Origin: Saccostrea cucullata
Lineage: Eukaryota
Direction: 5' to 3'
DNA length: 64,000 nt
Assembly: GCF_032062105.1 (NCBI RefSeq)
Contig: NW_026927214.1
Span: forward strand, 1 to 64,000
Shown piece by piece: positions 46,601 through 55,600 of this stretch (within the stretch, counting starts at the first letter, position 1; each line of letters begins with the position of its first letter). A program made the position numbers.

Positions 46601-49600
46601 TTTAAAATGGGAGTCAAATTTTAAGAGTGTTAAAAACATTTAGTAAAATAGAAACGCAATTAATTTTTGGTGATATTCAATTTTAGCCATCTCAGCACCC
46701 TAGGTAATAATTCCAAAATAAAATCTTTGCTAAAATTTCCACTTATATCGTATTTAAATGACTTTAATGTTACAGCAGTTAGAATAATGAATAACACAAC
46801 AACAGTCTTGACAACGGTACATTAATTCTCTACAGGCAAGCTTAAACAATGGAATTCTCTCTAACAGTGTCAGTACAGATAATATATACAGATATATGTA
46901 CAGATATATAAACAGATAGATAAACATTATGGTCAACTTCCACCACGGAACAATATTCCCCAATAATCATAAATAAGACAATAAAAAAAAATCTGCTACA
47001 AGACTCTTCATTTTACATTATTTTTCCATCACTTTTAAGCATCAAATTGACAATTATCTTTTAGATTAAGCCATAATCCGTGACTCTAGAATAATCAAAT
47101 GAATTTTCTTTTGATGAAAACAGAGAATGTAAAATGGAGGAAACATGAACAAGAATGGTAGACTATTTACATATTACACGTACAAAAGCATGTCTGAGGT
47201 TACACCACAAAAAAAAACAACACAATTGACCCGTTTTTTACTTCTTGCAAAGTATTTACAGCTGTACAAATAATGTCAATTAAAAAACAGAGTAAAAACT
47301 GAACTATTATAAGTAATCCTTTTTGTACTTTTCTTCTAAGATGTACTATTTTGACAAAATTAAAAACGGATAAAATCTAATAAACAATTTTATATCATTT
47401 TTATTAGGGAGAAAAAGATAAAAAATTGTTTTGACAATGACAATAAAATTCTATCTAAAAAAAAATAGAATGACTAGAGAACCACAAGTGACATTTTTTT
47501 ATTCCCTTAAAAAAATTATTTAATTAAAACCTGAATCAAATGCCATTGTTACTGAATAATTACAGAGATTCCAAAAAAGGTCTAGCCATTCATTACATGG
47601 TGAATGCTAATACAACGATTGGATGGTTATTGTAAATGAACCATAATTAATCGAACATTTATTGTTTTGGAAGCTAATACTTTGTTACACTCTAAGGAAT
47701 TCACAATGGGGAGGTCAAAGTATTCAGTCTCTACGTTTTCTGGTGAGAACTCATGCATGTTAATTGCAGGGTTGACCTTCATGTCACCGTACGGCCCCTT
47801 CAGGGCGATGAACTTAACCTGTATTGGGTTAGTGACCTTGCCCTTGAGAACCAGTTGATACGACATTGACCTTGAGACAGACTGGGTCGGTTTGTCGTTG
47901 TTGATTCTGGCTTTGATGACCCACTGATGGTTAAAGGCAGAGAACCTACTGGTCTCGTAGTACAGCTTGGTGATGAAATCATCAGTCCTGTAGGGCTTCA
48001 GCTGCAAATCTACAGATCACAGTTTGACTCAAGATTAAAACTCTAAAACAGCATTAGATATTTATTAATCAGTTTGAACATTATTTTTTTTTTAAGTTCA
48101 AACTTCAATTCATACTTTAAAGCTTAAGTCTTCTTGCTATAATTTCTTGAAAGTAAAAGATTATGAATGCTTTATCAAACCCAGTATACCATTAAATGTG
48201 ACTTTCTCATAGGAAAGTAAAAGATTACTGAATGCTTCATCAAATCCAGTATACCATTGAATGTGACTTTCTCGTAGGAGAGTAGATTGTAGAGATTGCT
48301 GTAGACTCTTAGCTCCTCCTCTCTCCTTTTATCCACCAGTGACAGAGCGTCCATGATGTCGTCTGCAGGCTTGCTCGGGTGGATACAGCTCTGCTCATGT
48401 CCTGCCAACTCATGAAAGGGTCCTTGCCAAGGACAACCAATTCTAGAGTATTTACAACATGTGGACCTAGAAATATAGCAACCATGAGATGAGCATGTGG
48501 AAGCAAAAGCTAAATATGTATTGTCTGTAAAAGAAAGGGGGTGTTCGATTAGTATACGTACCTGTCCTCCTTGTGTTACTCCAGTCTTAACAAATAATTA
48601 AAAACACCTGAAATAGCATTGGTTTTAACATGAGGTTAACTTTTCTGAAAAAATAACATATACATCCATCTCTGGAATAACAAAATCACCATACAGATTT
48701 CATAAATTGCATTAAACAGTGAATGTAAATCCAACGTGAGAATAGTGTGTCAAGTTTCACTGTATTCCAATAATCCTCTTCTGATTTTATTTCACAGTCT
48801 TGTGAGTTCATATTTCATCTCCAGATCATCACTATGGAAATTTTCTTCTATCTCCATTGAACTTGTATCACATTCGATGATTTGGAATTTGGAAAGCTTT
48901 CCTTGATTTTCAAAGAATCCTTGCTTAAGTTCACGCAATAACACTATACCTTACTTGGGTGCTCCTGGAAATGTCCTTGGTTTAAAACTACATCATTTAA
49001 TAAAAACAAAGCTAAGATAGGCAGGACAGAGATACAGACAGAAACACAATTAACTGTACATTAATGGGCTTAAGTTCCTTACTTAACTTCTTACATACAA
49101 ATGGGAATACCTTACTTAATATCTTACATACCCAGAAGGCCAATAAGCAAGGGTTTCTTGAAGCAGCATTGAAAATATTATTTCACCTGCCCCAGAATTT
49201 CAAAGGAACCCCAATTTAGCTTTACCTGGCCATGTCAAAAGGTCCCTTGCTTCAAACATTGTCCTTTTTTAATTATCAGGTCTAAAATCCACACAGCTCA
49301 CCAATATTCTTGAACATTATAAGTGCAGAAATGCTGCATTTCAGTTCTTGAGATAAACCTTTTGCAAGTTTGATTAGTAAATTATTTTTCAGGTTAAGTG
49401 TTTGAGAGTAAAAGACTCTTTGTCAGTTTGAAACATGAGAGCCAGCCTGGATGGATGTCTTCTAATGTAAAGAATAATTGTACCTGTGGATGTCCACAAG
49501 ACAGAGAAATTGCTTCTCTTTGAAAACTCAAATGTCTCTCCTTACTAGAGGGAACATTTCCTGCAAGTTTGATGACAACCTCTGGTTTTCTCCTAAAAAT

Positions 49601-52600: not shown

Positions 52601-55600
52601 TAATGAATTTTGATACGATTTCAATTTAATAATCCCGATAAATGGCTATAACCGGAACTACTTGAAATTTTCGAAACTGCTTGAATTCCCTTATATCTAA
52701 CGTACGAGAGTTTTATAATATAGTGTAACATTTTTAACAAAATGCCATTAGGGGTTGAAAAGGTAGGAAAAGGACTATTTGATTCAGTTTAGAAATCAAC
52801 TTTAAGTCCTACGCAAACAATGCAGCGAGCGTTTTCCTAGTTGCAATCCGGAACTACTTAAAACACTGTATGTTCCTTTTGCAATTTAATTTATTAATTT
52901 GCAGCATATGTTAATTTATTAACATGCTAAATGATTTGAATATTTCCTGCATCAAATGTAGCAAACGTACTTGATGCTGGCTTTTATATGCTCTGTAATT
53001 GAAGATTTCTGCCTTGTCTGTATGTTTGTTTGCAAAAACTTTCACCTTGGCCATAACTTATGAGTGGGTGGAGCTATGGCTTTCGTATTTCACGGGTGTA
53101 TTCCTTGTGACAAGAACTTTCACTGGGTACCACCAATTTGACCTATTGACCTTTGACCCACTTTTACAAAAAAAATTCTGAAATTTTATAGTGGCCATAA
53201 CTTTTGAATAAGCGATGCTAAGGCCTTCGTACTTCACATGTGTATTAACTGTGACAAGACCTTTCAGTGGGTATAAAATATTTGACCTTTTGACAGAGTT
53301 TCACCTTGTTTTCTAAAACTTCATATAACCAATTTTTTTTATGCTACCATAATCAAAGATTCAGGGATATATAGTTTTTGCCCTGTCCATCCATCTGTCT
53401 GCCAAAGCATTAACCTTGCTCATAAATTTTGAGTGGTTGCATGGGGCTATGGCTTTTATATTTCACAAGTATATTCCTTGTGACATGACCTTTCTCTCAG
53501 TACCACCAAATGTGACCTCTTGAACTTGAAGTTTGACCCAAATTTACAAAAAAAATCACTTTAACCTTGGCCATAACTTTTGAACTGTTGTTGCTAGGGC
53601 TTTCAGATATCACATTTGTATTCATTGTGACAAGATCTTTCAGTGGATTTAAATATTTTTGACTTTTTGGCCTTGACCTTAGAGTTTGACTTGCATTTGA
53701 GAAAAAGCAACATTTTCCATGTAAGGTGCCATAGCGGCCATCAGCATTTCACAAACACATCTTGTCTTCCTTGATAAAGCCTTCAATGTCTCTATATAAT
53801 AAAAACATTTTTTGGAGAAATTTATATTTTTATAAGTAACCAAGGCAACATCTTCAACAAAATCAAAAATAGTTAAAAAGAATTTAGTGCTGGGGATCGA
53901 ACGTGGGACCTCTGGCTTGCCAGTCCAGTGCTCTACCAATTGAGCTAAAGGGTTAATCCACTAGCCCAAGCAAGTAGGATGCCATGTATCTTACACTACT
54001 ACATTGCCCCCTCCAGAGAATGAGATGTCATCATCTCTTTTGGAGTGCCGACACCTGTGGGGCAAAGTTCTAGGGGCAATTACTCTCACCCTCCAGAGAA
54101 CACCCGGGTCCCTACATGGGCACCAAATGTAACAGAGACATTTTTGTGCCTCTGCTGGGGATCGAACCTGGGACCTAGCTGGCTTGCCAGTCCAGTGCTC
54201 TACCAATTGAGCTAAAGGGTTAACCCACTAGCCCAGGCTAGTAGGATGCCATGTATCTTACACTACTACAGTACTTGGTGTAGTCTAATTGTGTGCCAGT
54301 TCTACTGAAATCAGACCAAAATTGTACGAGTAGCATTTTTAAAAAAAGATAGTTTACAGCTGGACAGACACAGATAGAAGGATTGACAATGGAGACTTTA
54401 TTGCTGCATACTAGTAAGCAGAGCTATATAGAGAAGAGAAACTAAAAACTTAATGATGTACTGCTTTTAAAATCCTTAGGCTCATAGAAAAGAAATCATA
54501 ATATGGAATGTTTTATTACATGTATTTTTACTTTACTTCTCAATACATGATATGCACCATAACAGACTTCATTATGATTATAATCAATGACATGAAAAAA
54601 ATGTAGCAATTAAAAAAATAAGATTCTGACACTAGCAAAATTGGTCTTGTGTTAAGAATTATAGTGTTTCAGTTTTACAAATATTTTATGTAATTAAATA
54701 ACTCCTGAAACAGGTATAAATACAATGTACCAGTATATACAGGTACTATCCACATTTATTGCACTTTCCCATCTTGCAGCATGAATTAGATAAAATATAC
54801 ATAACAACAAAAAAATTCAAAATATTTGGACCATTTCTCACTTTACTGATCAGTACGACAATTTTAAAAAGACCTCAGGAAAAGATAATTTCCCAAAATC
54901 AAAGCATAATGCAGCCAGTCAACATTGGGAAATCCCAGCAAGGATCCATCGGAACCAAAAATAAGTCCTGCAGCAACGTAGGTCACCCCTGCTCCAAGTC
55001 CAAAGTAGTTCTTGTTTACAAAGCTTAGCGTTAAGATCACCAGCATTGAGAATCCACTAGCTGCCTGTGTCGCCACTTCTTTGGTTTTTGGTGGGAGAAA
55101 TGCAGCCACAACAACCACCGCTAAAAGGAAAATAGCTATTTTGTTTGCTAGCAGTGCTGATCCGTACCTAGCACAGAATTCCATGGCGATCAGTGGTACG
55201 CCAGCTCCTGCAGCTAACCATGACAGAAATTTGTGACACTTAAAAATAATTCCTCCCTCGGGATACGTCATCGCAAAACGGAAGATTCCAAAGAAGGCGG
55301 CTGTGGCCTGAATGGAGAGTCCGGCAGATGCCTTGATTTTGTCCACTTTGTACCACTCCCATGCAACAAAGGACGCCACCAAACACAAAAGGAGGTCAGA
55401 AAAAGAGGTGCTCAGCTGCCGCGCCATCTCCTTAAAATGATGGATAAAAAAAGTTGTGTAGAAAGTTTTATTAAATGTTAATTAAATGATGGATTAAAAA
55501 TAATGTATAAATTTAAGTATTATTATAAATCAGTCAAATGATAGGTTAAAAATACTGTAGAAAGTTTTGTCATATGTTAATCAAATGGTAGTTATGGAAA

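What the first reader, a model, noticed from the sequence alone, without database searches (positions are those of the whole stretch)
47627..55427. TMEM276 directly upstream of ZFTRAF1/CYHR1 on the same strand, as in human
Seen: the two CDSs are 3.3 kb apart, co-oriented, separated mostly by transposons. Known (from memory): in human the two genes are adjacent on 8q24.3, were long annotated as one CYHR1 locus, and have a TMEM276-ZFTRAF1 readthrough. Inference: a gene pair kept since the protostome-deuterostome split, suggesting shared regulation, readthrough or functional coupling between an uncharacterised membrane protein and a RING/TRAF zinc-finger protein.
Basis: partly seen in the sequence, partly recalled or inferred. 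Interest (0 to 1): 0.7.

Follow-up and report, generated by a model that had tools for sequence, protein, structure and literature searches.

The report
Oyster TMEM276-like and ZFTRAF1 gene neighbours
Two intact oyster genes, a small seven-helix membrane protein gene and a TRAF-type ubiquitin-ligase-like gene, lie head to tail 3.3 kb apart, and they look like separate genes in an old neighbourhood rather than one coupled unit.

Summary
On the minus strand, a single-exon 187-aa CDS (55427..54864) lies 3,333 nt upstream of a four-exon ZFTRAF1/CYHR1 gene (51530..47627).

The four exon translations, compared one by one, tile Magallana gigas ZFTRAF1-B from end to end at 88-96% identity.

The 187-aa protein is 78% identical to a Crassostrea virginica protein that NCBI names 'transmembrane protein 276-like'. 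It belongs to a family with 268 hits at E<=0.001 among cluster representatives. It folds confidently as seven helices. I could not retrieve any named vertebrate TMEM276, so orthology to the human gene rests on that one name.

The sequence points to two separate transcription units. Three AATAAA signals lie 104-462 nt after the first stop codon. About 60% of the spacer is repeat-like. A CpG-rich patch sits directly upstream of ZFTRAF1 exon 1. No fused protein appeared among the 57 ZFTRAF1-side or 164 TMEM276-side proteins scanned.

No eukaryotic genome collection was available, so adjacency across phyla could not be surveyed. The only added clue is that both genes sit on the same contig in 2 of 2 other molluscs where both were listed.

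Verdict: real genes, plausible ancient microsynteny, coupling unshown. Interest is modest.

The parts
54864..55427 (-). TMEM276-like gene, whole CDS in one exon (187 aa plus stop)
   Evidence: ORF and translation. It is 92% identical to Saccostrea echinata LOC133171762 and 78% to C. virginica 'transmembrane protein 276-like', colinear over 99% of the query. The AF2 model has 7 helices, pLDDT 88.5.
51321..51530 (-). ZFTRAF1/CYHR1-like coding exon 1 (70 codons, start of the RING; donor GT at 51320)
   Evidence: 63/70 identical to residues 1-68 of M. gigas ZFTRAF1-B P0012; borders.
50211..50449 (-). ZFTRAF1-like exon 2 (239 nt; rest of the RING and first TRAF-type zinc finger)
   Evidence: 76/79 identical to P0012 residues 69-147. 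Sina_RING matches below its cut-off, E 0.0053. AG/GT borders.
48255..48466 (-). ZFTRAF1-like exon 3 (212 nt; second zinc finger and coiled-coil helix)
   Evidence: 61/69 identical to P0012 residues 150-218; AG/GT borders.
47627..48009 (-). ZFTRAF1-like exon 4 (383 nt including stop; MATH/TRAF-C-like domain)
   Evidence: 116/126 identical to P0012 residues 220-345. It hit 57 full-length CYHR1/ZFTRAF1 proteins, all with precomputed PF28124.
51531..54863 (.). 3,333-nt spacer between the two CDSs, largely repeat-like
   Evidence: 737 nt (53015-53321, 53336-53765) have copies elsewhere in the window. The tRNA-like 92-nt units are at 53912-54003 and 54179-54270. AATAAA lies 104, 347 and 462 nt after the TMEM276-like stop.
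51866..52871 (.). 1,006-nt element bounded by 27-nt terminal inverted repeats (MITE-like)
   Evidence: Arms 51866-51892 and 52845-52871, 93% complementary.
51531..51999 (-). CpG-rich, promoter-like patch directly upstream of ZFTRAF1 exon 1
   Evidence: CpG observed/expected is 1.53 in 51500-51999, against 0.17-0.26 in 53000-54999. TGACGTCA at 51595..51588 and CACGTG at 51618..51613 were read. The motif names are recalled and are not evidence of function.
55431..55432 (-). Candidate splice acceptor AG just before GAG-ATG of the TMEM276-like CDS. Unverified.
   Evidence: Read; a pyrimidine-rich stretch lies upstream. No RNA data were available.

Best explanation
The window is oyster (Ostreidae) DNA. 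On the minus strand it carries two separate, intact genes in tandem. The upstream gene encodes, in one coding exon, a 187-aa seven-helix membrane protein with almost no loops. It belongs to the family that NCBI labels TMEM276-like in Crassostrea. Polar residues conserved inside its helices (S10-D11, R50, H65, Y150, D170, H173, N180) suggest a buried binding or catalytic site. The downstream gene, 3.3 kb away, is the single-copy orthologue of ZFTRAF1/CYHR1, a RING, TRAF zinc-finger, coiled-coil and MATH protein of the TRAF/SIAH type. I infer that it is a ubiquitin ligase that picks substrates through its MATH domain. I read the two genes as independent transcription units. The first ends at one of the polyA signals within about 0.5 kb of its stop. 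The second starts from its own CpG-rich promoter just upstream of exon 1. The spacer has been free to fill with repeats. If the human order is as recalled, the shared order and orientation are best explained as retained ancestral microsynteny, not as an operon-like or fused unit. Shown here: the gene models, their identities, the fold predictions and the sequence signals. Inferred: separate transcription, ligase activity, the age of the adjacency.
For: The gene models have canonical splice borders. Exon-by-exon tiling of M. gigas ZFTRAF1-B gives 63/70, 76/79, 61/69 and 116/126 identities. Exon 4 finds 57 CYHR1/ZFTRAF1 proteins in molluscs, annelids, a brachiopod, arthropods, echinoderms and hemichordates. 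A tree of 25 named proteins follows the species tree, with molluscs at 98/93 and protostomes at 99/96 support. The model of the C. virginica orthologue matches TRAF6 RING-zinc finger (E 5.7e-6), SIAH SBD and SPOP/TRAF MATH domains. The family profile matches SIAH1 RING-ZnF1 by sequence (E 2.8e-6). For the TMEM276-like gene, all 9 hits are mollusc or unnamed, one of them named 'transmembrane protein 276-like'. The profile finds 268 cluster representatives at E<=0.001 and 97 at E<=1e-10. The model has pLDDT 88.5 and pTM 0.83 with 7 helices. Conserved polar residues sit in the helices. Evidence for separate units: AATAAA at +104, +347 and +462 after the stop, CpG o/e 1.53 upstream of ZFTRAF1 exon 1, and no GTRAG donor inside the TMEM276-like CDS. 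The spacer is repeat-filled. 0 of 57 ZFTRAF1-side proteins carry a TMEM276-like domain and 0 of 164 TMEM276-side proteins carry a ZFTRAF1-like domain. Linkage elsewhere: in Pinctada imbricata both proteins list a longest contig of 63,253,413 nt, and in Argonauta hians both list 10,505,983 nt.
Against: No named vertebrate TMEM276 was reached, so orthology to the human gene is not shown directly. The same-contig clue shows linkage, not adjacency, and covers only 2 species. PolyA hexamers are frequent in 30-35% GC DNA, and CpG content is an indirect sign of a promoter. A pyrimidine-rich AG about 140 nt upstream of the ZFTRAF1 ATG could serve as an acceptor (read), so a spliced upstream exon is not excluded. 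No RNA data were available. Pfam in the local copy gives no family above cut-off for any piece. The human arrangement is recalled, not checked.
Confidence: 0.7

Rival explanations
1. The two genes form a conjoined or readthrough unit. Transcripts starting at the TMEM276-like promoter, or at a 5' UTR exon with a donor near 57598, continue or splice into ZFTRAF1 exons. This would couple their expression, as the recalled human TMEM276-ZFTRAF1 readthrough locus does.
For: The genes share strand and order and lie only 3.3 kb apart. A good CAG|GT donor lies at 57598/57597, and an AG lies just before the TMEM276-like start. In a pig study 'TMEM276' is listed under the TRAF zinc-finger InterPro entry IPR001293 together with ZFTRAF1. 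That fits a merged or readthrough annotation in a mammal (passages).
Against: Three AATAAA signals lie within 462 nt of the first stop. There is no GTRAG donor inside the TMEM276-like CDS. A CpG-rich patch sits directly before ZFTRAF1 exon 1. The bases just before the ZFTRAF1 ATG are purine-rich, which makes a poor acceptor. 0 of 57 and 0 of 164 database proteins are fusions. A splice into exon 2 would remove the first RING cysteines, which are encoded in exon 1.
Confidence: 0.12
2. The adjacency is kept because the two proteins work together. The seven-helix membrane protein would act as a membrane anchor, receptor or substrate for the TRAF-like ligase, by analogy with TRAFs docking on membrane receptors.
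For: ZFTRAF1 has the TRAF/SIAH architecture with a MATH domain. In TRAFs that domain binds membrane-receptor tails (established knowledge). ZFTRAF1 itself has no membrane segment, while its neighbour is entirely membrane-embedded. Adjacency in oyster plus the recalled human adjacency would fit selection for co-inheritance or co-expression.
Against: The membrane protein has no tails, and its loops are only 3-10 residues long. That leaves little to dock into a MATH peptide groove. Most conserved gene pairs in animals do not encode binding partners (recalled). No paper among the hits on TMEM276 or ZFTRAF1 links them functionally.
Confidence: 0.08
3. The resemblance to the human arrangement is not ancestral. 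Either the 187-aa protein is a paralogue rather than the TMEM276 orthologue, or the pair came together independently or is adjacent only in a few lineages.
For: Orthology rests on one automatic name. The family is large and continuous: 85 of 100 full-length hits fall in one single-linkage cluster. Paralogy therefore cannot be judged without labels. No cross-phylum survey was possible.
Against: Chance adjacency of one specific gene pair, in the same order and orientation, in two genomes of more than 20,000 genes each is of the order of 1 in 10,000 or less (my estimate). Both genes are on one contig in a pearl oyster and an argonaut as well. Only one TMEM276-like hit per named mollusc species was returned.
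Confidence: 0.15

Closest known systems
ZFTRAF1 / CYHR1 (zinc finger TRAF-type-containing protein 1; cysteine and histidine-rich protein 1)
   Same: All four exons are colinear with M. gigas ZFTRAF1-B at 88-96% identity. The length is the same, about 345-350 aa. The related model shows RING, TRAF zinc fingers, a coiled coil and a MATH-like end.
   Different: Nothing of note: it is an ordinary orthologue. The local Pfam models match only below their cut-offs. Its biochemical role is little studied. One paper's introduction cites galectin-3 binding and a recessive neurodevelopmental disorder (abstract, introduction and part of the methods read).
TMEM276 (human 8q24.3 gene; name and position recalled)
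   Same: A small multi-pass membrane protein lying directly upstream of ZFTRAF1 on the same strand. NCBI names the 78%-identical C. virginica protein 'transmembrane protein 276-like'.
   Different: No vertebrate sequence was compared here. The oyster genes show signs of separate transcription, whereas the human locus is recalled to have a readthrough gene and a history of merged annotation.
TRAF and SIAH families of RING E3 ligases
   Same: The domain order is RING, zinc fingers, coiled coil, MATH/SBD. Foldseek matches TRAF6 (E 5.7e-6), SIAH1/2 (about 1e-4) and SPOP MATH (about 4e-4). The sequence profile matches SIAH1 RING-ZnF1.
   Different: ZFTRAF1 forms a family of its own (precomputed PF28124 on all 57 hits). 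Its partners and substrates are unknown.
CREST-type seven-helix membrane proteins (alkaline ceramidases, PAQR/adiponectin receptors, TMEM8/Myomaker; grouping recalled)
   Same: The three best distinct PDB fold matches of the TMEM276-like model are ACER3, AdipoR1 and Myomaker, with TM-scores of 0.57-0.65 on the query. Both have conserved His, Asp and Ser inside the helices.
   Different: The matches are weak (E 0.04-0.07, none at or below 0.001), and rhodopsins and GPCRs follow closely. The conserved residues (S-D in helix 1, H in helix 3, D-x-x-H in helix 7) do not reproduce the recalled three-histidine zinc site. There is no sequence-level link.
Pfam DUF6962 (PF22285), an uncharacterised membrane protein family
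   Same: 1 of 15 hits of the family search carries a precomputed PF22285 label. The language-model atlas puts bacterial DUF6962 clusters among the nearest, at score 0.94 with 215 of 256 features shared.
   Different: The local Pfam scan gave no DUF6962 match for the oyster protein or 8 relatives. No paper mentions the family.
Conserved metazoan microsyntenic gene pairs (published catalogues, recalled, not seen)
   Same: Two unrelated genes are adjacent in the same order and orientation in a mollusc and, as recalled, in human.
   Different: Classic cases involve developmental regulators and bystander genes that hold their enhancers. Neither gene here is of that type. The pair is not mentioned in any paper I could search.

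Membership tests
ZFTRAF1/CYHR1 | Full-length colinear similarity to named family members | tested here: met
   The exons tile P0012 residues 1-68, 69-147, 150-218 and 220-345 at 90, 96, 88 and 92% identity. Exon 4 hits 57 family proteins.
ZFTRAF1/CYHR1 | RING + TRAF-type zinc finger + C-terminal MATH-like domain | tested here: met
   Tested on the 94-95% identical C. virginica protein P0011, not on a joined window protein: TRAF6, SIAH, SPOP MATH matches; SIAH1. The local Pfam matches only below cut-off.
ZFTRAF1/CYHR1 | Single-copy orthology (gene tree follows species tree) | tested here: met
   Tree of 25 named proteins. The window's own protein was not in the tree because its exons were not joined.
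ZFTRAF1/CYHR1 | E3 ubiquitin ligase activity | not testable with these tools
   Inferred from the RING architecture only.
TMEM276 | Sequence similarity to a named TMEM276 | tested here: inconclusive
   78% identity to C. virginica 'transmembrane protein 276-like'. No vertebrate member was among the 9 and 15 hits.
TMEM276 | Reciprocal best hit / same clade as vertebrate TMEM276 | not testable with these tools
TMEM276 | Small (about 190 aa) multi-pass membrane protein | tested here: met
   187 aa and 7 helices, pLDDT 88.5. Most family hits are 180-205 aa.
Pfam DUF6962 | Match to the family HMM above its cut-off | tested here: not met
   No match in the local Pfam copy. There is only a precomputed label on 1 of 15 relatives and atlas similarity.
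CREST superfamily (ceramidase/PAQR/TMEM8) | Seven-helix fold with significant structural match | tested here: inconclusive
   The top three distinct hits are ACER3, AdipoR1 and Myomaker, but at E 0.04-0.07, with 0 hits at E<=0.001.
CREST superfamily (ceramidase/PAQR/TMEM8) | Conserved Ser/His/Asp/His-x3-His metal-site motif (recalled) | tested here: inconclusive
   The family conserves S10, D11, H65, D170 and H173, which is only two histidines. No superposition of the sites was possible.
Ancient conserved microsyntenic pair | Adjacent and co-oriented in a protostome | tested here: met
   This window.
Ancient conserved microsyntenic pair | Adjacent and co-oriented in deuterostomes and in most sampled phyla | not testable with these tools
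   No eukaryotic genome collection was available. The human order is recalled. Goat ROH tables list TONSL, ZFTRAF1, KIFC2 without TMEM276. The pig table lists TMEM276 next to ZFTRAF1 in one annotation cluster. Both genes share a contig in 2 of 2 further molluscs.
Conjoined / readthrough gene | Transcripts or gene models joining both genes | tested here: not met
   0 of 57 and 0 of 164 proteins are fusions. PolyA signals and a CpG patch lie between the genes. RNA itself was not testable.

The most novel reading that the evidence does not exclude
TMEM276 and ZFTRAF1 are an ancient functional pair. A tail-less seven-helix membrane protein with a buried Ser-Asp/His/Asp-His site, distantly like ceramidase/PAQR/Myomaker proteins, would work with a TRAF-like RING-MATH ligase as its membrane platform, sensor or substrate. 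The two genes would have been kept head to tail for more than 500 million years because their expression must stay coupled. That would give a first functional handle on two barely studied human genes, one of which is linked to a recessive neurodevelopmental disorder.
Probability: 0.1. Interest if true: 0.65.

Novelty: new member of a known kind. Interest (0 to 1): 0.3.

Why it matters
If a proper gene-order survey confirms it, this would be one more deeply conserved gene pair in animals. It is an unusual one, because neither gene is a developmental regulator. It would also explain why the human locus was hard to annotate as two genes. Both proteins are nearly unstudied: 3 papers mention TMEM276 and 10 mention ZFTRAF1 in the searched library. 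A conserved neighbourhood is therefore a cheap lead to their function. A by-product of this work is the prediction that the TMEM276-like protein is a compact seven-helix protein with conserved polar residues inside the membrane. As it stands, the window itself shows two ordinary, separately organised genes.

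Tried and rejected
- **Complex prediction.** I ran the C. virginica pair (P0011 with P0005) once (collected) after many queue-full answers. The verdict was 'no answer': score 0.00 against a mark of 0.34, controls not run, my alignments not used. This counts neither for nor against binding.
- **A wider word-index search.** A 15-row alignment reached only more molluscs: octopus, argonaut and chiton.
- **Pfam.** At lax thresholds it gave nothing meaningful for the membrane protein.
- **Solved structures by sequence.** Nothing was found for the membrane protein.
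- **Prokaryotic relatives.** The family alignment had no stretch conserved enough to scan genome contigs.
- **Literature.** There were 0 papers for 'CYHR1 + readthrough', 'CYHR1 + microsynteny', 'transmembrane protein 276' and 'DUF6962'. DUF4791 appears in one passage, as a Wntless-like fold. I judged it not relevant, because only 16% of one arthropod cluster carries it. The 'TMEM276B' in PMC5503638 looks like a slip for another gene.
- **Wider microsynteny with the human 8q24.3 neighbours.** The other clear genes in the window are a beta-lactamase-domain ORF and a family-11 fucosyltransferase ORF. Neither is among the goat neighbours listed.

Full report
**What is there.** The window has no N. 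Its closest named relatives place it in an oyster of the family Ostreidae. The 187-aa protein is 92% identical to Saccostrea echinata LOC133171762 and 78% to a Crassostrea virginica protein. ZFTRAF1 exon 4 is 94% identical to C. virginica and 92% to Magallana gigas.

Both genes of the finding lie on the minus strand.
- The upstream gene has its whole CDS in one exon, from ATG 55427 to stop 54864.
- The downstream gene has four coding exons: 51530..51321, 50449..50211, 48466..48255 and 48009..47627. All internal borders are AG/GT, and the phases add up to 347 codons.
- The stop of the first gene and the ATG of the second are 3,333 nt apart.

It is not a chance ORF. Only three stop-free frames of 200 codons or more exist in the window, and none arose in 20 shuffles.

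**How the spliced gene was handled.** Each exon translation was searched or compared on its own. Every analysis that needed a full-length protein (profile, tree, fold, complex) used the named C. virginica (P0011) or M. gigas (P0012) proteins instead. The window's own full-length protein was therefore not folded or placed in a tree.

**Identity of the downstream gene.** The four exon translations tile M. gigas 'zinc finger TRAF-type-containing protein 1-B' without overlap:

| Exon | P0012 residues | Identities |
|---|---|---|
| 1 | 1-68 | 63/70 |
| 2 | 69-147 | 76/79 |
| 3 | 150-218 | 61/69 |
| 4 | 220-345 | 116/126 |

 The two split codons account for the missing residues.

Exon 4 alone finds 57 full-length CYHR1/ZFTRAF1 proteins from molluscs, annelids, a brachiopod, a nemertean, crustaceans, insects, echinoderms and hemichordates. 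All 57 carry the precomputed family PF28124. A tree of 25 named members follows the species tree, as expected of a single-copy orthologue.

The AlphaFold model of P0011 has mean pLDDT 75.7, and its first 42 residues are disordered.
- Its N-terminal half matches TRAF6 RING-zinc finger structures (E 5.7e-6).
- Its C-terminal beta-sandwich matches SIAH substrate-binding, SPOP MATH and TRAF domains (E about 1e-4 to 1e-3).
- A long helix lies between the two halves.

The family profile also hits SIAH1 RING-ZnF1 by sequence. This is an ordinary ZFTRAF1 orthologue with a TRAF/SIAH-type ligase architecture. What I read about its function is thin. One paper's introduction cites galectin-3 binding and a recessive neurodevelopmental disorder. 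One passage in a catalogue of human E3 ligases mentions ZFTRAF1 among proteins that lacked an AlphaFold DB model.

**Identity of the upstream gene.** The single-sequence search returned 9 relatives, all molluscan or unnamed. One of them is named 'transmembrane protein 276-like [Crassostrea virginica]'.

A profile of eight mollusc sequences, run against 1.84 billion cluster representatives, found 268 proteins at E<=0.001, 97 at E<=1e-10 and 21 at E<=1e-30. Most are 180-205 aa and match end to end. That library has no names, and the tool that could name them was switched off.

A last word-index search with a 15-row alignment reached only further molluscs: Octopus bimaculoides, Argonauta hians and Liolophura sinensis. 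I also left unaligned the unnamed hits of 195-201 aa, which might be vertebrate.

**What the upstream protein looks like.** With the 15-row alignment it folds confidently (pLDDT 88.5, pTM 0.83) as seven helices joined by loops of 3-10 residues, with no tails. Positions conserved in at least 14 of the 15 rows include polar residues inside helices:
- S10 and D11 in helix 1
- R50 at the end of helix 2
- H65 in helix 3
- Y150 in helix 6
- D170, H173, Y174 and N180 in helix 7

The three best distinct PDB fold matches are alkaline ceramidase 3, adiponectin receptor 1 and Myomaker, with TM-scores of 0.57-0.65. All are weak (E 0.04-0.07, none at or below 0.001), and rhodopsins and GPCRs follow closely.

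Two other leads point to Pfam DUF6962. One relative carries a precomputed DUF6962 label. A language-model atlas lists bacterial DUF6962 clusters among the nearest. The local Pfam copy gives no match.

My reading, as inference, is a compact seven-helix protein with a buried polar site, possibly a small-molecule or lipid-handling or metal-binding site. I do not file it under any characterised family.

**One unit or two?** The sequence favours two.
- AATAAA occurs 104, 347 and 462 nt after the first stop.
- The spacer is largely repeat-like. 737 nt have diverged copies at 42.2-45.6 kb and 19.7-20.2 kb of the window. A 1,006-nt element has 27-nt terminal inverted repeats. Two 97%-identical tRNA-like units are not called as tRNA genes.
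- CpG observed/expected is 0.17-0.26 over those repeats but 1.53 in the 500 nt that end at ZFTRAF1 exon 1. That stretch also holds a TGACGTCA and a CACGTG. These motif names are recalled, and the matches are not evidence of function.
- The bases just before the ZFTRAF1 ATG are purine-rich, which makes a poor acceptor.
- The TMEM276-like CDS holds no GTRAG donor.
- None of the 57 ZFTRAF1-side proteins carries a TMEM276-like domain, and none of the 164 TMEM276-side proteins carries a ZFTRAF1-like domain. Automated gene models elsewhere have therefore not fused the two.

Three points weigh against this reading. PolyA hexamers are common in AT-rich DNA. A pyrimidine-rich AG about 140 nt upstream of the ATG could accept a splice. 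No RNA data were available.

**Is the neighbourhood ancient?** I could not test this properly. The only genome collection open to me holds bacteria and archaea.

What I have is indirect.
- In the search tables, the Pinctada imbricata TMEM276-like and ZFTRAF1-like proteins both list a longest contig of 63,253,413 nt. The Argonauta hians pair both list 10,505,983 nt. These were the only 2 species with both proteins listed, and both share a contig. That shows linkage, not adjacency.
- A goat table lists TONSL, ZFTRAF1, KIFC2 and FOXH1 in order, without TMEM276.
- A pig table places TMEM276 and ZFTRAF1 together under the TRAF zinc-finger InterPro entry. That fits a merged annotation in a mammal.
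- The human arrangement, the readthrough locus and the history of a single CYHR1 record are recalled, not checked.

If the human order is as recalled, chance is a poor explanation. One specific pair, in the same order and orientation, in two genomes of more than 20,000 genes has odds of roughly 1 in 10,000 by my estimate. I therefore lean towards retained microsynteny, at roughly even to moderately favourable odds.

**Functional coupling.** The idea is attractive on paper, because TRAF-type MATH domains dock on membrane receptors. But the membrane protein has no tails and only very short loops. No paper among the hits on TMEM276 or ZFTRAF1 connects the two genes. A single complex prediction gave no verdict and is listed only under things tried.

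**Verdict.** These are two ordinary, intact, separately organised genes. Their shared order with the recalled human locus makes them a plausible, still unpublished, example of deep microsynteny. Novelty: a new member of a known kind. Interest is about 0.3. It would rise if a gene-order survey and RNA or interaction data showed real coupling.

Noticed in passing
window 48164-48284 (-): A 65-nt tandem duplication copies the last bases of ZFTRAF1 exon 3 together with its splice donor (two 56-nt copies, 91% identical). By my arithmetic, use of the second donor copy would shift the frame, so it is probably an inert intronic duplicate.
   Followed up: partly
window 6296-8449 (-): An uninterrupted 718-aa ORF has a Pfam Beta-lactamase (serine hydrolase) domain, E 3.4e-32. 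It is apparently a single-exon gene.
   Followed up: partly
window 22664-23743 (-): An uninterrupted 360-aa ORF has a glycosyltransferase family 11 (fucosyltransferase) domain, E 2e-44.
   Followed up: partly
window 30740-30812 (+): A tRNA gene scores 51.8 bits in Rfam, but ARAGORN reports an undetermined type with a four-base anticodon.
   Followed up: no
window 53912-54003 and 54179-54270: Two 97%-identical 92-nt units lie 267 nt apart and resemble the internal-promoter region of a tRNA (resemblance recalled). Neither is called as a tRNA, so they are probably heads of a tRNA-derived SINE.
   Followed up: partly
window 51866-52871: A 1,006-nt element with 27-nt terminal inverted repeats (93% complementary) sits just upstream of the CpG-rich patch of ZFTRAF1. 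It is MITE-like, and no ORF with a family match was found.
   Followed up: partly
window 8161-8511 (+) and 59687-59959 (-): Two ORF fragments with clearly similar translations lie on opposite strands, 51 kb apart. They are probably pieces of a repeated element.
   Followed up: no
window 42260-45567 and 19705-20233: These regions hold many diverged copies (65-85% identity) of the roughly 120-150-nt unit that also fills 53015-53765 of the spacer. It is an abundant short repeat family in this genome.
   Followed up: partly
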